A DNA stretch of 64,000 bases, from contig OZ316775.1 of the NCBI GenBank assembly GCA_973851085.1, positions 5,952,001 through 6,016,000 of the forward strand. The letters run 5' to 3'. The stretch is from Ptychomitrium polyphyllum. Its lineage: Eukaryota. How positions within the stretch are numbered: position 1 is the stretch's first letter; the number at the start of each line of letters is the position of its first letter. This document shows, piece after piece, positions 1 to 62,240 of this stretch. Below the pieces are notes generated by a model, which did no database searches, was not told where the DNA came from, and saw only the letters and a program-made list of their open reading frames with translations. The position numbers were made by a program, and so were the translations under genes.

Positions 1-15
1 TGTGAATTTGCGGCC

Positions 16-3000
16 ATGGCATCGGAGGGGAGCTCTCTCGCATTTCGGCTGAATCTGCTGGTTGTGGTAAGCTCGATCCACCCGCCTTCTTCATTTTACC
101 ATACTTGGTGGGGACATGACCTTGTTCAGGCCAGTTCAAGGTTATGGTTAAGCTCGCTTTTGAAGATGTGTGATCTGGTTTCTGTTTTCTGGGAAATTGG
201 GTCAAGAATCGTATGTTTGAAGAAACATCATTTAATGATGATGTCTAGGTGAGGTTCTCTTAGAAAGAGGATATGACCATATTCGGGCCAGTGCAAGGTT
301 TAAGGTTAGCCTCGGTTTGAGATCACTGTTGCCTGGTTTTTATGGTTTGAGAGATTGTGTTTAGGATTGCATGCCATGAGAGAGATCATTCAATGATGAT
401 ATATATGTGGTTTTCTCTTGGTGGAACTGATAATTTAGCGGATCGCATGTGTGGGGTTAGTGATGGTAATCGAAGCAATTGGGGAAATTGATGAATAAGG
501 GAGCTGTTGGTGGTTTTGGGACTGGGTGTGATTTTGCAATCGATGTTTGGGAACTGGGTTGTGTTGTGTTATAGGATGTTGAATTTGGAATGAAGGTGAG
601 CAGGAGATCAAGTAAGAGGGTTGTGGCGTTCGTGTTGCATGCGCAGGTGTTGTCAGTTGCGGTGTGGGGTTCCTTGTACTTCAACAAGTATTTACGTGAG
701 CTTGAATTGACTGCCAGGTGTGTGCTCAGAGTAGAGGTTGAACGTATTCTGTTAGCGCCTTCTGCATTGTGAATCTTGTGTCCTTAGAAATAGTTCCGCA
801 AAGTCATTTTTTGATCGAGGGTTTTGTTAAGAAATTAGTAGTAGAGAAATTGAAGGTAACTTGATAACACCCGAACTTTATTTTCTGGTCTAACCTTAAA
901 GAGAAGGAACCGGTGAGCTTTGGCATATGCATGATCTCCACCAAGAATGTTGATTTCATCAATTCAGAGGTTAGCATTGGGTTTTTGTCTATATTATTAA
1001 AACAGGGGAATAGAATTAAGCTTCTCAAGTTGCGAAGACGTGCAAGGTGCAACTAAGGAAAATTTCTTCTGGAAACCTAACTTCTTTAAACCCTAGCAAC
1101 AGTTGGAGCGGGCATAACTTTGGCCTTCTATGTTCTAAAGTTGGTATTGTCTTGCTGTTGCTCTGGAATGGCTTCTTCCAGCAATGCAGGGACATGCCCA
1201 CTTTTGGATTATGGTACGTATGCACATATTTCTCGACCATCTGAGAAGTACATCTCTTTGATACTGCCAGCATATAATGAGGAGGCTCGACTCCGCATTA
1301 CTCTTGATGAAATGTTGAGGTACCTCCTCTACTACTAATCCTGTTTATATTGAGGATTGTTGTTTCGAACAGAAACATCTATATTTGACAGAATCATGTC
1401 ATGCATTGTATGATAGGACCCAGCCAGATACATTAGTATGGTCACGATTTTATCTGGCTATGTCCGTGACGATAATCCTTCCCGTTTTACGTTCTGCAGT
1501 TATCTTCAAAAGCGAGCAGAGAGCGACAAGTTATTCACTTATGAGGTGTCTCCCTTGCGATATGAGTACCTTTTTAGTGGTTTTACCTATTATGTATCTC
1601 AGCTACTGCGCTATTGACTTCATTACCAGTCCTCTCATAGATTATGTAGGTGGAATACACATTGATAAAGCAGCAGGTTTTAATAGCGTTTTGGATTCGC
1701 CTTGTTGGTGGGGCCAGGTAATTATTGTGGACGATGGCAGCACTGACAAGACTCTGGAAATTGCAAAGGAGTATGTAAAAACTTATGGCATCGATACAAT
1801 ACGGGTTCTTAAACAAGTCGTGAACCACGGCAAAGGAGCAGCTGTCAGAAAGGTATTCATGTCCTACCGTGACGATTTCTATTTTTGCTATCAAATTAAC
1901 AGTTGGATACTTCTTTGGATGTTTGTGATACCGTCGCTTTGTGAAGTAGTGTATGCTATGAATAGCTAAGCATTTTAGAAATTTTGTCAAGTCTTGAAGA
2001 TCGTCAGTGCTGAGAGTTGGAGCAAAATGCAGGGAATGCTATGTTCTCGTGGGGAGCTACTCTTGATGCTCGACTCTGATGGTGCCACCAGATTCGCAGA
2101 CTTGAGAAAGTTGGAACTACAAGTAAGTCTTTGAATCTTCTTCATTCTGCTGAACGCATGTGTTTGTAGAGAATCAGAGAGCGTGGAACGTCTTAATAGT
2201 CAGTTACAATGTTACAGTACCGAGATGTTTGTGATGTTTGTTCAGATGTTGCTAAGTATGGCAGATCAGAATAGATTTGCGGAGGCAGGCTCTGTCTATG
2301 ATGGGGACAGTATCCCCGTCGCTGTGTGGGGATCTCGAGCACACCTAGAAAAGCAAGCATTAGCCACAGTAAGTGGGTTTCCCTTTTAGACCCCTTCTAT
2401 TACGAAATCATAAACAGTTACAGTTGTCGCTCATGTGCTCTTTTTCAATATTCAGTAAGCTGGCTTCCATATAAGCGCAGTCAGTATGGAATTTCTAACA
2501 CGAACCCCAAGTGCAGGGCTTTTGAAGAGCAGTCTAGACTGTTAGTTCTGTCTTCGTATGAAGGTATCTGCAAGTGATGGTCTGGGAATATATCTTGAGG
2601 TTTTTCCTATATTTGTTATGCAGCGCAAGTGGTATCGTAATATTCTCATGAAGGGCTTTCATCTTTGTGTTCGCTTTGTTGCTGGTGGAGGCATCCGTGA
2701 TACTCAGGTTCGTCGTCTCTACAGTACTCTTTTATTCTGCATATCATGTTGTTGTAGCTCAGAGACATCTTTTTGGTAAGTATTTTAGGTATGACTGTAA
2801 ACATTACAAGTGAAATCACAAAAATCACAGCCGTGTACAACATTGGTGCTAGTCTCTTGGTGCTCAAATTTGCAAAATCTAAATTAGCGTTCATGAAAAT
2901 GTTGGAACTGTCAATACATGTGGTATCTGGTGAAGTTTTTTAAGGAAAACATAGGAATGTCGAGGATGGATTCTGTATGTTACAATTTACACTCAGGAAC

Positions 3001-26600: not shown

Positions 26601-27319
26601 CTCCCCGGGTGATATGTTTCCTTTCTTTTTATCCAAATAACTCCATTGCACAACGTTAAGTAGCCCACTAGTCCCTCAACCTTTTTTAAGCAACCCTACT
26701 TAACTACCTGATGATCAGAATCTGCCCTTGAAAAGTTAGGTATATTACAGTTTACAAGGATATTGTAGTGAAGTTTGCACATTTTACTAAATTAAGTACC
26801 ATAATATTATACTTAATGTTATAACTTAAATTCAATGATACTAGCATTGATGTAGATCAAGGTTGATCTATCATATTTGAATTTTTATCACTTGCAAAAA
26901 ATTATTCCAATCAAATTTATTATGTGTACAGTTTAAAAACTATATATTACACCTTGCATATAATGTTAATTTTAATAATTAAGCTTTGTATCCTTGTAAA
27001 GTTAGGTATATTACATCAATTACTTATTTCAGTAACATATTTTTGAAAATTCATTAATTTGTTGATGTTTTTATGAATTAAACAATGAATGTTTAATTCC
27101 GAAATGATTAAAAATAATTTCAGTATAAAAAATTCATTGTTTTTTATGTTTGGGAAGAAAATACAAGACAAGGGTTTAAGGCAAAGAAATGGAATAATTG
27201 GGCTTTATATTAAGAACCAAGAATTGCAACAAGATACAAGGTTAGAAAATTTGAATTGTATTATAAGAGATGTGTTATTGAAACTAAATTTTTTTCAATT
27301 TTAACTCGTATATATCATA

Positions 27320-27960
27320 TGTTAGAATATAAGAAATAAGAAGCAGAGACAAAGTGTTTTCCAAGAATCTAATGATTAACAAGAATTAATACAAAGACTA
27401 AAGCAAGGTAGGATACAATATAATCCACAACTCGTGTTGACAAGACTAAGATATATCTTGTCTTGCCTGCTATTTATACTATGATACTTGTATTTCCTAG
27501 GATACTTCTAAAGAAGCTTCCTACAAGGCTTAAAAATGTTATAGAATTCTATGGAATCTTCCTAAGAAGCTTCCAAAGAGTTGGAACCTTCATAGGAAGT
27601 TTCTTAAGGAGGTAGAAACGGCTATAGAGATATTAAAAGTATTCTAAGAAACTATTATAACATACCAGAAGGTTCTAAAAGGTTTTAAAGAATATGTTGC
27701 ATAATCTATGTCCGTAACACTATAGATCTAAAATTCCTTGGAAGATCTAAAATTCCTTAGAAGCTTCTCAATAGGCTTCCAAATACAACACTTTGCATTG
27801 AAGCATTATCATGTTGCTTCTTTGAAAACTTTCTTAATTCGTTAGAATATTCTAAAATTGAGGTAGTTTCTTCAACAACATCTTAAAGATGCCTAGACCT
27901 TCTAAGAATGTTTTTGGATCTTTAAAGAACTACTTTAGACCTCATTGGACCTACTAAGTC
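27320..27960. mobile_element. Degraded LTR retrotransposon LTR fragment(s)
   Basis: Repeated AGAAGCTTC/TTCTAGAA-type motifs and LTR-like end TGTCCGTAACA (27709-27719). That end is near-complementary to TGTTATGGACA, which opens the similar element at 63592. Confidence 0.6.
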
Positions 27961-28242
27961 TTCTTATAAATTTATAATATATATCTGTGACATTTGAAGT
28001 GTTATATGTGTAAATGGAAATGAGACATGAAAAGTTCAACCATATAATCTTGTAATAGAAATAATAGAAATAATTTGAATCAAATTTGCATACATAAGGC
28101 CTCATAAATTGAAAGATTATAATTTTTTTATTATTAAAAAATGATTAATTTCTTTGGCTAGTAGTACATTGGATTTGAAATTCTATTATTAAATTTATTC
28201 AAATATATAAATTTTAATTTAAAATGTGTTTAATATCTTACT

Positions 28243-29387
28243 TGTCGCGCACTTCTCCTTGAGGAGTGCCCGCAACACTAAAGGCACAAAGAGGACCCCG
28301 GAGTGACGTCTGGGACTTGTGGCGCCGATAGTGAGGGAAACCGAGTGGGCCTAGCGTGGGAAGGACCCCTAGGGGGAGAAACATCCTTGCCCATGTAGAC
28401 CGAGGGCCACGAGGGATAGATTGTGGGCATTGGAGGAATCACGAAGAGCTAATTCTAGAATGCTAAAAATTGTCCAAATCGGACAAGGGAACTAAAAGTT
28501 ATGGCATTCCAAAGTTGGGGTTGCCAAGGGGCTGTTCTGGAGTGTGGCAGCCCTACACAGTGATTGTAGTGGAGTGGGACAGTTCAGGGAGGGACTCCCC
28601 AGGAGTCCCAAACCTTGGGAGAGGCGTATCTCCTACAATACTAACTCAAATATGACGTTTGAGGAGTTTATCGGCATCTACGCAAAGAGTAGATGACGAT
28701 AGAGTGGTCGCTCAATACATTCGGGCACCGGATGAGGAAGATATGGCTCCCTGAAGGTCCGCTAGGAGTCTCGGAGGCTTCCAGCGGCTAAGTTCCAAGG
28801 GAGATCGGGTGGTCTTCCAAAACTCTAGGTGTGTCGGGGTTCAGCCAGCTACAGAGGACCAGGGGGCCTGCCAAATCCCACAGAGAGTACTATAAGGGAG
28901 GGCTGGTCCCCCTCCCCACTCCCCTAGTGTCCCGGTAGAGACCAAGGGTGAGTCCTGGTTGGTGGAGCTAGCGTTGGGGCTTCACCATGGGGACTCCCAC
29001 ACCATTGTGAGCCGGTAGATGGCCGGTTTCACGGAGGGAACTAGCACGTTCAAAAGAGTACGCTTGTTACCACTAAGTTGGGGTGGTGTCTTCACGCCGG
29101 CACCATGATGGCCTAGGGTGATTTTAGGATCGCATGGGGATTATGAGTGGTGGTGAGGAGACACCACTAAGTGCGGTTAAGCCGTGTGGATTGGGAGTAA
29201 CACCAAGTGAGGCCTTGGACATAAATGGAAGTCCGCACTTAACCATTGGCTATTAATAAATTGGGTGTCCTAAGAGAAATGGTAGAAAGACTTGGATAGT
29301 GAGAATCGAGGTTAACCATGTGCATGTGGGAGTGTACAGAATTGACGCGCGTGACGCTTGCTAAGGTGCATTACAAGGGTTGCGACA
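28243..29387. mobile_element. Solo LTR (1145 bp) with intact target-site duplication
   Basis: Starts TGTCGC and ends GCGACA (6-bp terminal inverted repeat, TG...CA). Flanked by TTACT at both 28238-28242 and 29388-29392. Sharp GC-rich block in AT-rich DNA with no gag/pol ORF. Confidence 0.9.
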
Positions 29388-30786: not shown

Positions 30787-31751
30787 CTAAAGCGATTGGT
30801 GAAGCGATTCACCATCGGTAGACAAAACCGTTACAGACTCTCGAGTGACGGCGGTTTCCGAGAGGAGGGCAGAGTTCGGCTTCTTCCTGGATTTCTTCAC
30901 TACCGTTGTTTCTTCGGTCTTCAACATTGGCACCGGCCACACGTACGGGAGATCCGGCGGCTCCGTCCACCCGAATTGCGTGTAGTGCTCAGGTTCCTTT
31001 CGCAGCAAATTGGAGCGGTGGGAGGCGTGAACTGAGTCATCTCCTGCGACCGAGAATCAGAATTTGCGAAGTCAGGCCTATGATCTGAATGCCCTGAATT
31101 CAGCAAAGCGAAAGAACTACAAGAAATCCTCAGTAAATTTCATTCCAAGAGACATTCCCATTTCGAAATTCAGCAAGAGAAATGGATACCTTGACACTAA
31201 ACCCTAAACCCTGATGAACCAAAACCACGTCGACACACAAGGGACATTCCTCGACCTTGATGGGAGATTCTGAGGTTTCATTGCAACCTATGAAGGGAGG
31301 TGAAGAGAAGAAAGTGCTCACCAAGCCATGGCGGCATGACGACGGGCAGCAATTGAGGCTCCAGAGGCTGCAGAATTACGTTCTTGAACCCCCGCCTTCC
31401 CCATTCCCCCAAGCAGGCATTGTAGTACACAAGGAGCGCGTCCGGAAAGCCACGCCACATTCGCACCGCAGGCGAATTCGCCCATGCCGTCCCCTTCACC
31501 GGCACGGGGCTTGCCTGCACAATGCGCAGGATTTGCCACGCCTCCACCCTCTGCTTCCCCAGGCGCCGGTTGTCCAGGCATTCCACGGTGCGGTCGAACT
31601 CCGGGTAGGGCAAAAACGTATTGAGGCACCGGACTTGGAGCCTCCTGCTCCCCGATGATAACCCCGTATGCTTTCCTACGCCGATGAAGCGGTGCGATTT
31701 CGAAGGACTGACTCGCGTGAAGAAATGTTGCGAACTTAGTCGAGACGTCAT
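30787..31751 (-). CDS. Pyrimidine-dimer DNA glycosylase / T4 endonuclease V-like protein (MSMEG_6728-type) with N-terminal organellar transit peptide; 2 exons, 228 aa
   Basis: Exon 1 31751-31322 and exon 2 31043-30787 join in frame across a GTGAG...GCAG intron (PPWL-G-DDSVHASHRSNLLRKEPEHY). Motifs LNTFLPYPEF, LDNRRLGKQRVE, PAVRMWRG, EWGRRGF, PPWLG, SHRSNLLRK, DLPYVWP match the pattern I recall for the bacterial family. Confidence 0.85.
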
Positions 31752-55593: not shown

Positions 55594-57671
55594 CCATAAC
55601 TTATTAGAAAGCTTATAATTTAAAGATATGGTATCAAATGCAAATCATTGATGTTGCTTTTGATAAGTGAGTCTGTACATTGAAGGATGTTAAATATAAA
55701 TTGCTTTGCTGCAAAGATTTATTATATTATATTTAGGTCTCCGTAAAATATGGATAATACACCACCTGAATGTGCATATTATATAATCAAACCAAAGTCA
55801 ATTCATAGCTTTTCTAAAAATACTAAACAATTTAGGAATATATCATACAAACTTAACGTACGATTCAAAGATATAACATATACTTCTCACTTCTAAAGTT
55901 AAAGATAGACTAATGATGAAAGTACACCTTGAAGTTTAAAACTTTCAGTACGGAATTCTATGATTTTCAATAGAACATTATTGAAGAATAATATTTAAGA
56001 TTAAAAACCCTTTCAATAACTCAATCAAAAGTCTATATTCTGCATTAAAGGAAACTATTGGTCTTTCATCTTCAAAGCTCTGATTCCTAGAATTGAGGCT
56101 AAACTAGCAAATCATAATGATCTATAATTAAACTACGATATTCAGAAAAAACCTTCACTTCTTACTATGAAGGCCTTCCGGACCGTTTCCAACTTATCCA
56201 CCAACGAAACTTAATTCTTGAAAGGCAGCAGTCAAACTGGCCTCGACTACTTCTGACTAGCAAACCTCACAACAAAGTGTAAAATTGGTCAACAACAAAG
56301 TGGAATACCTTATCCACTGCTGAGCAAAAGCACATCCAGCAGATACAGCAAATCGTCCAATAAAGTCTAGTAATTTCCAAACGACAAGTACATCATAACA
56401 CAACACTAATATAACATAAGATACACATACTACACACAGAATAAAATAAGCTCTCATCCAATCTCGAAATTCTTGACCAACCACGTACCCAATCCAACTC
56501 AAAACACGAGAAAAAAAATCTGCGAAAACGACTGCCATTGAGTGAAGCGCCAAAAGAACGTGACTAGGCAATTAACTACAACCTCCCAAACAGGTTTTGA
56601 TTCTAAACACGACTGCATCTCCGGCAAGCACGACAACTGGGCGAACGCTCCATCCAACATCCACGACCGACATGCTGCAGCCCTCACGAGACGGCGCTCC
56701 CGTTTCAAGCCACTGCACCGCTGCCACGCCTTCCCAGACGGACTGCCTTGCACACGCACGCACGCACCCACATTCAAAGACCCACTCCCTGCCAGATTCT
56801 ACTCCGGCGCACGGCCACCGATACATTCACCATGCGGCAACACCATCGACACACGGCTCCCCATGGCAGGTGAAAAAAAAATTTAATTGGCCCCCCCGGG
56901 GAGCAGCCTCAACTACTACAACACTACCAGAGCCCTATTACGGCCCTCTTTATCACGTGACCCTGCTCCTGCATTCTAACTATGTCCGCATTAGCCGTCC
57001 GACAATCAATCCCTTCATCGGCATTGTACACCGCCCCCTCTCCCACCTTCTCGCCGGCCCCCCGCCCCCCACTTCCTCCACAGGATCCCGGCCCGAATGC
57101 TACACAGGGCTCAACCACCGTTTCGCGTCCTCGCCGCAGCTCCAATTTCCACGCTGCCGCCGGCTTCTCCACGCACCGGGTGGACGTCCAGGCGCTTCCG
57201 CATCCCTCGACATCACCCCGAGAGCTTCCCTGCAGCTTCCCTCGCTCCCGTCCGCCACGCGCCCTGCCCGCCATCGGAGCGGACAGCCCTACCTTCACGT
57301 TCCCTATACCTTTCTTGTGCTTTCCTGAATGAAGAATATCTCCAGCGCTTATCCTCCTCGCCGCCTTTCGCGACTATGGACTCTCGTCCCTATGGACTGT
57401 TGTACAGGCCTCTGCGGCGTCCCTCCCCTCGCCCCCGTCGGCCGGGCTCCGCCGTCGCCCAACGAACCGTCTACGGACGCGACGGCTCGCCCGGTGGACG
57501 CCCTCCGCTCACCGCCACCAGGCTGGAGGCACCCCGGAGGACGATCGTCGCCCCTCCGCTCCGCCTCTTCGGATTGCGCCGACTCCCACCCGGATCTCAC
57601 AGCCGCAGACTTTTACACTCCTTATCATAGCATACTTATACAGGCAGACCAGCTACGGCGCTCCTCGTCTC

Positions 57672-60600
57672 CTAGGCTGTCCACGACGCAGACCTCGTCA
57701 GGGACGGCTTCATCTTCCGGTCCTCCTCCAACCCTATCATTCCCAGGTGCGACGGATCCTCCAGCATCATCTTCGCCACCAGATAGCCCGCAATGGACCA
57801 CGTCTGGAACTTCCGAGCCTGCTTCCCCACGTACCGCCCCAGCTTGCCGTCGTAGTACTCCGGCCACCCGTCCTTCGCTAGCCTCGTCTCCACCTGCTCG
57901 ATGGCCCGCCTCGCAATTTGCGGCCTCCCGGCCTTGATGCACGCAGCCGTCAGCATCCACAGGATAACTGCACACACAACCCACCGACCAAACCACATGC
58001 TCAGCGCACCATCATGCGGCCCGTCGTTCCGCCCGCTGCACACGGCACTCCGCGTCAACGCATTCGGCACCGCCGCGCACGACACTAGCCGCCCCGGAAC
58101 TGTCAACGGCTCCCACGGCCCGCACCCAAACCCGACCCGGCGTCTCCACTCCGGACCCTAGTTCCGTCTTGCAACATTAGCGCCGGCCGCACCGGTGCCG
58201 CGAACATCCTCTCCTCGGACCCTCACTCTCCTCTCAACTAGCGACCGAAGGTGGACTCTGAGTCGCGACTTCCGACTCGATTGCTCTCGTCCACGCCCAC
58301 GCAACGACCCGGGACCGCCTCAACCTCCCCCGACACCGGCGCCTGCTACCCAAGAACGACGCAACCCTCGCTCCGTTCACCGACGGCAGGGCGGGTGACG
58401 CCCGGGCCCCCGACACGACCTCTGTGCCTCGGACACCCGAGCGCGCACCCGCCCAACAGCGAACCCTAATCCAAGCACAAACGGAAGCGACTGGCGCTCT
58501 ACCTGGCCACGACCCGGCATTGTGGTAGCTCCACCTCGTGTTCTTCGGGTCGCATCCCGTCACGATGCGCCACTCGTGCCCCTCCATCGCCGGGTACGAC
58601 ACCTTCAGAGGCATGTCGCCCACCAGCTCCGGCCACCGCGCTTCCAGCAGGTCCATGATGGCCGACGCCTGATCCGACGTCGCCAGCGACGACAGGATGG
58701 CCATGAAGTTGCCGATGGCGAACCACCGGAAGTCCATCCGAGCAGGGCTCACGTTCCCGATGAAGAAGCCGCCCTTCAGCGGCAGGAAGTCGAATATCCA
58801 GTCCGGGATGGAGTCCGGTATCACGTTGAACTTGTTCACGGCCGTGTGCGAGTACTCCTCCGTCTTGAACCGGTAGATGTTGTTCAGCTGCTGGTGGTCC
58901 AGCCAGAAGTACTCCCGCATGTGGAAGCTCAGCGCGTGCAGCCGCTTGTCGATCCTCTCCAGAAACTCCTTGCCGTCCCCTTCCGCCTTGATCAGGCTCT
59001 TGGCAGACCGCAGAGCCATGAAAAACAGGCTCTGGATCTCGATCGGATAACCGTAGATGCCCTGCCACCACGACACACGCGGGTCAGCTCCCCGCCATCT
59101 CCCGCGCACGTTCTCCGGAGGGCCACCACGGCGTCCTCCGGCCAACGCACGCCTGCCAAACCCCGTGCCTCACCACCACGCCGGACGGCCCCGACTCCCG
59201 CACCACGCACTGCACACGCAGACCTAATCCTCACACCGGCTCACGAACCTCACTGCTATCGGTCGTCTACCGGCGCACCGCGCGGCCCTCGCCCCACCCT
59301 CCCCTAAGAGTTCCGGATGCACGTACCATCCGCCGATCCACCATGCAGCACCCGTCCGCGCACAGCAGCGTCGGAAACGTATCGAAACCGTCCGCCAGGC
59401 ACAGCGTCAAAATCAGCCTCATCCCCCTCTGGCAGTCCGCCATGTCCGCCAGGGTGTGGTCCCCGGTCGACTTCGTGTACGCCCGAAGGAGTATGATCCA
59501 CCAGAACCCCGAATCCACCGGGGCCACCCTCCCGATCGCACTCTCGCCGAAGTCCGCGATCATCGTGTCCGTCTTCCGCACCGGGTCGTGCAGGACCTGC
59601 GAGTCCACACGCCGCTCACCCCGTCAGCACGCCACCGACACCCCCCCCGCTACACAAAACACACCGGCCTCGCCCGAGCGATTCCCACGGCACGGGGTCC
59701 CGCCCCGTCCAGCCTCGGACGACTTCCACATCTACGTGCTTCCGGACACACCACCACACGCCATTCACGAAACAAGCCCACGCTCACCTTGAAGCTGGCC
59801 GGCATCACGCCTTCCCCCAACGTGAAGCAATCGATGCGCTTCTCGATGCTCTGCAGCCGCAGCGTCTTCAACAGGAAGTTCTTCACTATCTCCGGCTCCC
59901 CGTTCATCAGAAACGCCAGCGCGCTCGGGACGAAGTCCCGCACGAACACCTGCGCCCAAGTCATACGTCAGACTCCCACGCGGCATACATACAGTGCCTG
60001 CCATCCAGGCGCACCACTCCGCTCTCACCCCCACGCCGCACGACCTGCACTACTCCGGCGTGCCCGCGACGATGGCCGGATGCGGTCCCCAACCAGCGAC
60101 CGCCACACCTGCTGCCGTTCGCGACGCGGCCCACATTGCACGCGCGCGACCCCCGAGCCCCACGCCCTCCACGAAGACCTAACAACACGACGCTCTACCC
60201 TACCCTGCCACCACCGCCACGCCACCCGACACTGAGCGTCCGCTCGGGACGCGGAGCGGGCTGCAATCCGCAGGACCCGTCCGATTCGCTCTCGTCCGTT
60301 CCGCGCATCCCGCCCTACCGCTCCACGAATCAACCGCTTGCCGACGACCCCATTCCCGGCTACTCTACGCGTGCTGCCCCCTTGCTCGCAGCGCTCGCCG
60401 ACCGACACACGCCTCCCCGTACTTTCGCCCAATTCACCGCGCCCCCGACGCATGGACGGACGACACACACTGCACATGCTCACGGATAGCGTACCTGATT
60501 GTAATTCAGCGAGTCCTCCGTAGGATCCAGCGCCGCGATGGTTCCCACCGGCCTCGACCGGAAGTACACCATCGACCTCCTCAGCGCTTCCCATGCGTCC

Positions 60601-60941
60601 GCAATCATTGGATGAGGCTCAAACGCATGGTGCTCCCGAGGAGTACCGGCCGACGACCGGATGCTCGGAGACAGCAGCGCCTCCAGGCACTCCGAACTCT
60701 TCACGGTCTCTAACTGCCGGGGAGGCCGCGGCGACGACAGGCCCGAAGAGATGATGTCATTCAGCGACCTCTCGTCCAGAGAGTGCTGGGTCTCAATCTG
60801 GCGCGGCCTGAGGTCCATCAGCTTCCCGAAATCCACACTGCCGTTGTCCCCAGACGCGTGCGACTCGTTGGCCTTCCTAAGTGCCTCCGAGGTAGTCTCC
60901 AGGGTCAGGGGTCTTGGAAAGCTATACATGTCGAAAGGCAT
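57672..60941 (-). CDS. Cytosolic alkaline/neutral invertase (GH100), 5 coding exons
   Basis: Exons 60941-60495 ([14 protein letters not shown]), 59949-59788 ([14 protein letters not shown]), 59596-59327 ([30 protein letters not shown]), 59061-58503 ([10 protein letters not shown]...[10 protein letters not shown]), 57967-57672 ([24 protein letters not shown]). No transit peptide is evident, and the RSASW tail is typical of the cytosolic clade. Confidence 0.97.
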
Positions 60942-61752
60942 TAGGTTTCCACCGGCCCTCTGTCACGACAAATCGGACGCGTATCTCCCAATTCTCGGCC
61001 ACGTACGGCGGGCGTACGTACACACAGTAATGCGGCAGATCGAGCAACGCACTTAGGACAGATTACCGTTCAGTGCTTCTTAGTGTGAACTGCCTCAGGG
61101 TTCTGCGAAGGGTGCGGCTTACCACGGCCGAGCGAATGTCTCCTCCGGGCCCTAATCCACACTCGGATCGCTCTTCTTGAGGCCGCTACCCCGACCCAGC
61201 TCCTTCACCACTCCTGCCTCGCATTTCCCTCCAACTCCCGACTCATCAAGCCCTCGCAATGCATGCAACCTGCGCGCACCTCAACGCCTGCTCAGAGCGC
61301 CTCTCCTGCTGCTTATCGCGTCAGGCATCAGCCGCGGGCGCCAATTCTCTGCTTCCCGCCGTGATGAGACTGGAAGTGTCAAACTCTGCTTCCGGGCTGC
61401 ACATTCGAGGAGGACGGGATGCCGCGCTCGGAAACCTCAGCCCCCGCCGCGACCCCGATCCGGAGGGAGAACGCGCACCCGCGCGGAGCTGCCCTAGCCA
61501 ACGGCCAAACACCCGGGCGCCCAGGCCACAGACTGGACAAATTGGGCGAGCGGGAAGAAATGCGAGGCGGGGAAGGCGAGCGGGGCTACGGCAATGAGAT
61601 CTCGCGCCCACGGAAGGTCGATCGGCCCCGGCCGAAGACGGAGCCCGGCGCCTCCCTCAGATCTGCTCAAGACCTCGGACCGCCGCGCGCACGAGCCCAC
61701 CGCCCTCTCCCCAGGCCAGCAATTGCCGCCGCAACCACCACACTCGCCACCT

Positions 61753-61788
61753 CCACGCCCACGCCCACGCCCACGCCCGCGCCCACGC
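61753..61788. repeat. (CCCACG)n hexamer microsatellite
   Basis: CCACGCCCACGCCCACGCCCACGCCCGCGCCCACGC read directly. Confidence 0.85.
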
Positions 61789-62240
61789 ACACGCTCCGCT
61801 CCGCCCAATTCCACTCCAACCGCGCAGATCGCTCTCGGAATCCCGGCGGCCGACCAGCGCACAGGAGGGCTGCGCCCTTACGGAAACAGAAGCAAACGCC
61901 ACACGGCCGCGCTCCCCCTCCGCCCGCGCGCCCCGCGCACCAAGCCGCAGCTCCCCGTCCTCCCTACGAACGTCAGGCCGGGCTCGCCGTCTTCCGCTCG
62001 CTCCACCCGCCTCGGGACGCAGGCGCCACTCGCACCTCGCTGCGAAGCACGCGAAAGGCCCGCAACGTCAGCTGCGCCCCCGCCCGGCCACTCCAGCACT
62101 GGCACAGCACAGCGACGAGGCGACCGCACCACACTCCGCGGGAGAGGAGGAGGAATGCAGCAGCGAAGGCCGAGAATGCTGTCCGAGACCAATCGGGTGC
62201 GGAGGCGAAAGAAGGAGAGGAACGTCAAGCATCCCGGGGC

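What the first reader, a model, noticed from the sequence alone, without database searches (positions are those of the whole stretch)
30787..31751. Bacterial/phage-type pyrimidine-dimer DNA glycosylase (T4 endonuclease V-like) domesticated as an intron-containing plant nuclear gene
Seen: two ORF pieces joined in frame by a canonical phase-1 intron give an intact 228-aa protein, located among ordinary plant genes. Known: the motif string xxTFLPY...LDxRRLGKQRVE...PAVRMWRG...EWxRRGF...PPWLG...SHRSNLLRK...DLPYVWP fits the bacterial MSMEG_6728-type members of the Pyr_excise (DenV) family. Its RVE glutamate (E70 here) aligns with catalytic Glu23 of T4 endonuclease V. Plants classically repair cyclobutane pyrimidine dimers with photolyases and nuclear NER. 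Inference: a horizontally acquired, light-independent base-excision route for UV lesions in a bryophyte. The intron argues against contamination. The family's usual HPAVRMW His appears as Ser (NSPAVRMW), which may alter activity.
Basis: partly seen in the sequence, partly recalled or inferred. Interest (0 to 1): 0.9.

Follow-up and report, generated by a model that had tools for sequence, protein, structure and literature searches.

The report
Import-activated organelle DNA-repair enzyme in moss
This moss gene is a bacteria-derived relative of the phage T4 UV-repair enzyme, shared by a conjugating green alga, mosses, liverworts and ferns; its front end is a predicted organelle-targeting peptide whose removal would uncover the catalytic first residue, so it likely repairs chloroplast or mitochondrial DNA rather than nuclear DNA.

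Summary
The gene is real: two exons joined by a 278-nt phase-1 GT-AG intron give 228 aa, with Pfam Pyr_excise and MSMEG_6728-family matches. It is not a one-moss curiosity. Orthologs occur in Physcomitrium, Marchantia, Riccia, Adiantum and the alga Spirogloea, and they form one clade (98/90) among prokaryotic sequences, not cyanobacterial ones: one ancient transfer. No seed plant appeared in the top lists. Prokaryotic members begin exactly at the domain, and structure alignment puts that first residue on Thr2 of T4 endonuclease V, whose free amine is the nucleophile. All plant copies carry instead an R/S-rich, acid-poor extension ending in [IVT]R[CASG]|L (23 of 23 domain starts), which fits the plastid transit-peptide cut consensus at -3 to -1, and the Leu takes Thr2's place. 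So the protein is likely an inactive precursor switched on by organelle import: an organellar, not nuclear, glycosylase/AP lyase. Targeting, cleavage, activity and substrate are untested. T4's three arginines are replaced in this subfamily, and an otherwise invariant His is Ser/Ala in land plants, so a pyrimidine-dimer substrate is about even odds.

The parts
31322..31751 (-). Exon 1 (430 nt, codons 1-143 plus one base)
   Evidence: Pfam PF03013 at residues 44-124
31626..31751 (-). Codons 1-42: predicted organelle transit peptide (12 Ser/Thr, net charge +8, no Asp/Glu; only in-frame ATG in the first 50 codons)
   Evidence: disordered in the model of the close homolog P0141 (pLDDT about 47-50 over residues 1-40)
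31626..31637 (-). QVRC, predicted processing site (-4 to -1), conserved as [QEG][IVT]R[CASG] in plant orthologs
   Evidence: 23 of 23 plant domain starts; 0 of 130 prokaryote/virus loci, 2 of 1699 other positions in the extensions; plastid consensus in PMC2291561
31623..31625 (-). Leu43: predicted mature N-terminus and amine nucleophile, in the place of bacterial Met1 and T4 Thr2
   Evidence: structure alignment of P0141 model range 42..167 to 1enj 2..138; bacterial model 1..116 to 2..126
31542..31544 (-). Glu70 (KQRVE), counterpart of T4 Glu23
   Evidence: invariant in 136 of 136 rows of A2; register from a weak hhalign alignment
31473..31475 (-). Ser93, replacing a His present in 127 of 127 non-plant rows
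   Evidence: Ser/Ala in all land-plant rows, His kept in one Spirogloea paralog
31044..31321 (-). 278-nt phase-1 GT-AG intron inside PPWLG
   Evidence: genomic moss-type homologs diverge right after PPWLG while spliced ones continue as in bacteria
30931..31043 (-). Exon 2, conserved part: C-terminal helix (SHRSNLLRK) and PYVWP end of the domain
   Evidence: NF038085 positions 113-148, E 9.1e-11
30787..30930 (-). Exon 2, variable C-terminal tail with a basic patch (residues 193-198) and stop codon
   Evidence: 22 of 46 identical to P0141 against 127 of 139 in the core; patch absent from Physcomitrium, Marchantia and fern rows

Best explanation
This intron-containing moss gene encodes a T4 endonuclease V-fold protein of the MSMEG_6728 family, inferred to have come from bacteria once in an ancestor of conjugating algae and land plants, and it is likely made as an inactive precursor that is predicted to be imported into the chloroplast (or mitochondrion), cut after VRC, and so given a free amine on Leu43 that would act with Glu70 as a DNA glycosylase/AP lyase on organellar DNA. 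Steps shown: gene structure, family, fold, distribution, one plant clade, position of Leu43 on T4 Thr2, conservation of the cut-like motif. Steps inferred: targeting and cleavage at that bond (about 0.85), plastid alone or dual rather than mitochondrion only (about 0.65), retained glycosylase/lyase activity (about 0.75), cyclobutane pyrimidine dimers as the lesion (about 0.5). By T4 chemistry (recalled), the N-terminal amine would attack C1' of the damaged nucleotide, form a Schiff base and nick the strand by beta-elimination, handing over to organellar base excision repair.
For: Fold: top and only Z>=5 hit among 48,161 chains is T4 endonuclease V for both models (Z 9.2, rmsd 4.1, 110 aligned; Z 10.0, rmsd 3.5, 103 aligned), with the first aligned pairs Leu42(P0141)/Thr2 and Met1/Thr2. 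Need for a free N-terminus in the family: in GTDB loci the codon before [QN]TF is ATG/GTG in 70 of 76 motif matches and ATH/GTA in the other 6 (5 of 80 loci gave no match); in viral loci ATG/GTG in 76 of 79; among 464 non-plant proteins 334 start with Met there, 18 with Val, 31 with Met-Val (Met removal would expose Val at the same place); 68 of 77 long non-plant proteins have the domain at the very start, with RecQ-type or ssDNA-binding parts added behind it. Titles of Schrock and Lloyd 1991 and 1993, seen in a reference list, state that the amino terminus and its position are needed for T4 catalysis. Plant extension: 31-86 aa in single-domain proteins, basic, nearly free of Asp/Glu, divergent, yet ending in the same motif in 23 of 23 domain starts, 0 of 130 in prokaryote/virus controls; plastid consensus [V/I][R/A/V][A/M/C] (PMC2291561, passages). 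Core under strong constraint: 127 of 139 identical to P0141, 93 of 139 to Marchantia, 90 of 139 to Adiantum. Origin: 11 plant rows one clade 98/90, sister group with Blastocatellia and Pirellulales MAGs 95/90; 1 of 401 genomes in the cyanobacterial phylum sample passes the family cut-off, and it is the Gastranaerophilales centre.
Against: No localisation, N-terminomics or activity data; no targeting predictor was available. Leu at +1 does not fit the plastid +1 preference (A/S/M or A/V/S), and in mitochondria ICP55 prefers to trim F/Y/I/L (PMC6460961), which would shift the amine by one residue. Foldseek gave no match at E<=0.001 for either model, sequence search of the PDB found no T4 hit and profile-profile scores with T4 DenV are not significant, so the residue map beyond the first pair is weak. 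T4 Arg3, Arg22 and Arg26 (61, 61 and 36 of 61 DenV rows) correspond to N44, V69 and Q73. The His present in 127 of 127 non-plant rows is Ser/Ala in land plants. An earlier tree with a mis-modelled Spirogloea row did not recover all plants as one clade (54% of bootstrap trees; not rejected, p-AU 0.446). No spliced transcript of this organism was seen.
Confidence: 0.62

Rival explanations
1. Same organellar, cleavage-activated enzyme, but its substrate is not the UV dimer: it acts on abasic sites or another damaged base (oxidative or desiccation damage).
For: T4's arginines are replaced and the subfamily has its own invariant set (D60, R63, Q67, R68, W90, W99, Y109, W117, R120, K159 in window numbering). 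Holders include Syntrophaceae, methanogens and groundwater MAGs, by their record titles, which I would not expect to see UV (inference). MSMEG_6728 is listed as a conserved hypothetical gene down-regulated in a sigF mutant that is sensitive to oxidative stress (PMC4694148, table passage). No conserved UV-repair neighbourhood among 104 flanking ORFs scanned.
Against: This rival overlaps the best explanation except for substrate.
Confidence: 0.3
2. The land-plant protein has lost catalysis (His to Ser/Ala) and serves as an organellar DNA- or damage-binding nucleoid protein.
For: His is invariant in 147 of 147 non-plant rows and absent from every land-plant row; Spirogloea keeps both a His and a Ser paralog in tandem, which would allow one copy to change function.
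Against: Glu70 and the exact amine position are kept across algae to ferns. In the weak alignment to T4 this site falls on T4's own Ser47-Pro48, so Ser may be tolerated; the register there is unsure.
Confidence: 0.15
3. A nuclear, light-independent dimer-repair enzyme.
For: Basic patch at residues 193-198 could be a nuclear signal; similar patches in P0141/P0142, Riccia sorocarpa and Spirogloea.
Against: The patch is missing in Physcomitrium, Marchantia and ferns; the start Met of the domain is Leu in all plant rows and there is no second in-frame ATG before it, so a cytosolic or nuclear form would have a blocked amine.
Confidence: 0.07
4. Endosymbiotic gene transfer from the plastid or mitochondrial ancestor, or contamination.
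For: An organelle-type presequence is typical of endosymbiotic genes; one homolog is named Geminicoccaceae, an alphaproteobacterial family by my recall.
Against: 1 of 401 cyanobacterial-phylum genomes over the cut-off, and that row does not group with plants; no other eukaryotes were named in the top 120 of three searches; intron, orthologs on chromosome-scale records and even depth exclude contamination. Alphaproteobacteria were not surveyed as a class.
Confidence: 0.03

Closest known systems
T4 endonuclease V (DenV, T4-pdg; PDB 1enj/2end; Pfam PF03013)
   Same: Fold (Z 9.2 and 10.0), first residue on Thr2, Glu70 on Glu23 in a weak alignment, same Pfam family.
   Different: 13% identity in the structure alignment; Arg3/Arg22/Arg26 replaced by N/V/Q; T4 exposes its amine by Met removal (recalled), the plant protein would do so by presequence removal; T4 DenV does not match NF038085.
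MSMEG_6728 family (NCBIfam NF038085)
   Same: Spliced plant orthologs score 119-142 bits against a cut-off of 100 (6 of 6 plant proteins); 85 of 132 core positions identical to the nearest bacterial protein P0013.
   Different: Plant rows have a presequence, Leu for Met1, Ser/Ala for the conserved His in land plants, and an intron in mosses. I found no functional study of the family (2 papers name the gene; one read in passage as a transcriptome table entry; the other seen only as a listing).
Plant MAG (3-methyladenine glycosylase) acquired from bacteria by streptophytes (Fang et al. 2017, as summarised in PMC12448838)
   Same: A bacterial DNA glycosylase gained by transfer around the origin of land plants (passages).
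   Different: Unrelated enzyme family; the review has no occurrence of 'pyrimidine' and does not mention this gene in the passages found.
Poaceae CPD photolyase targeted to chloroplasts (Otake et al. 2024, PMC11060685)
   Same: Addresses UV dimers in chloroplast DNA.
   Different: Light-dependent direct reversal, grass-specific targeting; Arabidopsis chloroplast dimers were not removed in 24 h and Selaginella and Chlamydomonas N-terminal chimeras did not reach chloroplasts; no bryophyte or fern was tested (sections 10 and 11 read).

Membership tests
Pyr_excise / DenV superfamily (PF03013) | Pfam score above gathering cut-off | tested here: met
   63.9 bits vs 23 on exon 1
Pyr_excise / DenV superfamily (PF03013) | T4 endonuclease V fold | tested here: met
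   VIA-align top hit 1enj Z 9.2, next 4.9, on the model of close homolog P0141; Foldseek not significant
T4-type pyrimidine dimer glycosylase/AP lyase | Free alpha-amine at the Thr2 position | tested here: inconclusive
   Leu43 occupies the position but is blocked in the precursor; cleavage is predicted only
T4-type pyrimidine dimer glycosylase/AP lyase | Catalytic Glu23 | tested here: met
   Glu70 invariant in 136 of 136 rows; register from a low-probability alignment
T4-type pyrimidine dimer glycosylase/AP lyase | Arg3, Arg22, Arg26 basic cluster (role recalled) | tested here: not met
   N44, V69, Q73 at these places; other invariant basic residues R63, R68, R120, K159 may substitute
T4-type pyrimidine dimer glycosylase/AP lyase | Cleaves cis-syn dimers and abasic sites through a Schiff base | not testable with these tools
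   needs biochemistry
MSMEG_6728 family (NF038085) | NCBIfam score above 100 bits | tested here: met
   exons 81.7 + 41.9 bits scored apart; spliced orthologs 119-142 bits
MSMEG_6728 family (NF038085) | HP-x-x-x-MW His | tested here: not met
   Ser93 here; His in 127 of 127 non-plant rows
Plastid transit peptide | Ser/Thr-rich, basic, acid-poor, unstructured presequence | tested here: met
   12 S/T, net +8 in 42 aa; low pLDDT; the same make-up fits mitochondrial presequences (recalled)
Plastid transit peptide | [V/I]-x-[A/C/S] before the cut | tested here: met
   VRC here; consensus from PMC2291561; variants with T at -3 or G at -1 occur
Plastid transit peptide | A/S/V/M at +1 | tested here: not met
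   Leu in all plant rows
Plastid transit peptide | Import and processing in vivo | not testable with these tools
   needs imaging or N-terminomics

The most novel reading that the evidence does not exclude
Seed-free plants and their algal sisters carry a light-independent excision enzyme for UV dimers inside the chloroplast, captured from soil bacteria before plants came ashore, held inert outside the organelle because its catalytic amine is created by transit-peptide cleavage, and lost in seed plants, which would explain why their plastids seem to lack dimer repair.
Probability: 0.27. Interest if true: 0.92.

Novelty: new variant of a known kind. Interest (0 to 1): 0.78.

Why it matters
Plant organelles are described as lacking nucleotide excision repair and comparable enzymes for UV lesions (PMC13365964, passages), and CPD photolyase reached chloroplasts only in the grasses tested (PMC11060685). 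A candidate organellar excision enzyme in Marchantia (Mp2g12340) and Physcomitrium (PHYPA_016582), both easy knockout models by my knowledge, makes the question of how seed-free plants mend UV damage in organelle DNA directly testable. The design, in which the import cut itself would make the catalytic amine, is also a natural solution to targeting an enzyme class that does not tolerate N-terminal additions, and it gives a first handle on the unstudied MSMEG_6728 family.

Tried and rejected
No whole genome is held for this window, so copy number and synteny were not checked. RNA: the only RNA run offered held a 151-nt contig about 93% alike in exon 1, from a relative, with no joint. Sequence searches of the PDB, profile comparison with T4 DenV and Foldseek gave nothing significant; T4 entries had the best TM-scores among listed Foldseek rows (0.48-0.58). 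ESM Atlas returned only MSMEG_6728 clusters at 0.86-0.87. Gene neighbourhoods of GTDB members showed no conserved operon; a few repair genes occurred once or twice (RecX, DinB-type, RNase HII, ATP-dependent ligase) among 104 ORFs. Hydrophobic moments of the extensions (0.37-0.62) did not separate plastid from mitochondrial targeting. The first careful tree used the fused Spirogloea model P0144, whose first copy has an insertion; it left Spirogloea unresolved and was redone with P0424/P0425, ten added bacterial rows and six near-duplicate rows dropped. Absence of seed plants, lycophytes, hornworts and other algae rests on top-120 lists of a word-seeded search (7997 candidates scored in the last) and is not proof of loss. 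Paper searches; none showed this gene in plants. Yue et al. 2012 main text has no 'pyrimidine' or 'glycosylase' (supplements not read). The HGT list of Ma et al. 2022 was not seen and may include this family. Two papers on T4 mechanism could not be fetched. Earlier scan findings: none relevant. No complex prediction was run.

Full report
Observation. The minus-strand gene runs from ATG 31751 to a stop ending at 30787, with a GT donor at 31321 and an AG acceptor ending at 31044; the 278-nt phase-1 intron gives 228 aa. The intron is lower in GC than the exons and closed by stops. Exon 1 matches Pfam Pyr_excise and the two exons match successive parts of the MSMEG_6728 model. Flanking genes are ordinary plant genes, and contigs of one sample tile from the gene into them at similar depth. 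I found no spliced read for this organism. Indirect support for splicing: close homologs P0141/P0142 (127-128 of 139 core residues identical) are continuous across the junction on 1.1-kb Logan contigs, while members of the same cluster read into unrelated sequence after PPWLG; the Physcomitrium spliced protein is on 302 Logan contigs, and its genomic read-through P0005 breaks at the same place. That these short contigs are transcripts is my inference.

Distribution and origin. Named orthologs are in Physcomitrium patens, Marchantia polymorpha and M. paleacea, Riccia sorocarpa, R. fluitans and Adiantum nelumboides and Spirogloea muscicola, which has two tandem paralogs on each of three scaffolds. 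A plant-built profile ranked these first and then dropped to unnamed short proteins; no seed plant was named in the top 120. The family itself is large: 5543 representatives at E<=0.001, in many bacterial and archaeal phyla and viruses. In the final tree (63 rows, 134 columns) the 11 plant rows form one clade at 98/90, land plants 98/88, the window row sits with Physcomitrium at 100/98, and the sister group holds Blastocatellia and Pirellulales MAGs with unnamed proteins at 95/90. An earlier tree with a mis-modelled Spirogloea row left that alga unresolved (p-AU 0.446). Among 401 genomes of the cyanobacterial phylum, 6 had any match and 1 passed the cut-off, the Gastranaerophilales genome used as centre. 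I read this as one transfer from a non-cyanobacterial prokaryote before Zygnematophyceae and land plants split; the donor phylum is not fixed.

The feature that was missed. In prokaryotes and viruses the protein starts at the domain. The codon before [QN]TF is ATG or GTG in 70 of 76 GTDB motif matches, the rest ATH or GTA, and ATG or GTG in 76 of 79 viral loci. Of 464 non-plant proteins, 334 start with Met there, 18 with Val, 31 with Met-Val, 63 have upstream letters followed by M, V, L or I (mostly, I infer, over-called starts), 4 start otherwise and 14 lack the motif. Fusions are added behind the domain (68 of 77 long proteins). Models of a moss homolog and of a bacterial member both return T4 endonuclease V as the only hit with Z>=5 among 48,161 chains, and the alignments begin with Leu42 on Thr2 and Met1 on Thr2. 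Foldseek did not reach significance. T4 catalysis needs the N-terminal amine in the right place (titles of Schrock and Lloyd 1991, 1993 in a reference list, and a passage on imine chemistry; residue roles otherwise recalled).

In plants this residue is Leu, behind an extension of 31-86 residues that is basic, almost free of acids and poorly conserved, yet ends in [IVT]R[CASG] in 23 of 23 domain starts chosen by homology; four more Spirogloea proteins fit too. Many of these rows are close kin, but they span alga, mosses, two liverwort genera and ferns. The motif occurs in 0 of 130 prokaryote/virus upstream frames and 2 of 1699 other positions of the extensions. It matches the plastid cut consensus at -3 to -1 but not at +1 (PMC2291561); Arg at -2 also fits mitochondrial processing (recalled), where ICP55 might trim the Leu (PMC6460961). 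No second in-frame ATG precedes the domain. The simplest reading is a precursor whose import cut creates the catalytic amine.

What it acts on. Glu70 is invariant and falls on Glu23 in a weak profile alignment (probability 2.2%). By that alignment and the N-terminal register, T4 Arg3, Arg22 and Arg26 are N44, V69 and Q73, so I do not file the protein as a T4-type dimer glycosylase; it is a member of the MSMEG_6728 family that likely works like one. The His of the HP motif is present in 127 of 127 non-plant rows and is Ser or Ala in all land-plant rows, with His kept in one Spirogloea paralog; in the weak alignment T4 has Ser47 there. The only published passage I read on the bacterial gene lists it as a SigF-dependent hypothetical protein. 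Hence about even odds for dimers against abasic or oxidative lesions, and a smaller chance of lost catalysis.

Context in print. Chloroplast targeting of CPD photolyase was seen only for grasses, Arabidopsis chloroplast dimers were not removed in 24 h, and no bryophyte or fern was tested (PMC11060685). A 2026 paper states that plant organelles lack NER and comparable enzymes. Ten searches of the held library and the main text of Yue et al. 2012 did not show this gene in plants; subscription papers and large HGT supplements were not seen.

Verdict. Observation confirmed; interpretation partly supported and redirected to an organellar, import-activated enzyme. New variant of a known kind, interest 0.78.

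Noticed in passing
window 28243-29387: Solo LTR of about 1145 bp with TG...CA ends and a 5-bp target-site duplication (TTACT), very high copy by depth; other copies continue into a TGGTATCAGAGC primer-binding-like sequence. It lies 1.4 kb downstream of the gene.
   Followed up: partly
window about 27200-28200: A second, AT-rich repeat at roughly 100-fold the single-copy depth directly left of the solo LTR.
   Followed up: no
P0144, P0270, P0306, P0424, P0425 (Spirogloea): Tandem paralog pair, one keeping the His and one with Ser, with quite different presequences; they could serve different organelles. P0144 is a fused gene model and P0144/P0306 carry a likely retained intron piece.
   Followed up: partly
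P0199, P0213, P0217, P0187, P0398: Prokaryotic or viral fusions of the domain to C-terminal parts with RecQ zinc-binding or weak DEAD matches, or to a phage ssDNA-binding domain, which ties the family to DNA metabolism.
   Followed up: partly
P0239: A member interrupted by HNH-AP2 endonuclease sequence, possibly a mobile intron or insertion in the gene.
   Followed up: no
window 31041-31046: Tandem AG acceptors three bases apart; use of the second would drop the Gly of PPWLG.
   Followed up: no
L032, L045, L047, L051, L059: Five prokaryotic members appear to start at ATT, ATC or ATA codons at the exact domain start.
   Followed up: no
window 56000-62000: GC-rich island (0.55-0.66) holding the neutral invertase gene, against 0.2-0.5 elsewhere.
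   Followed up: no
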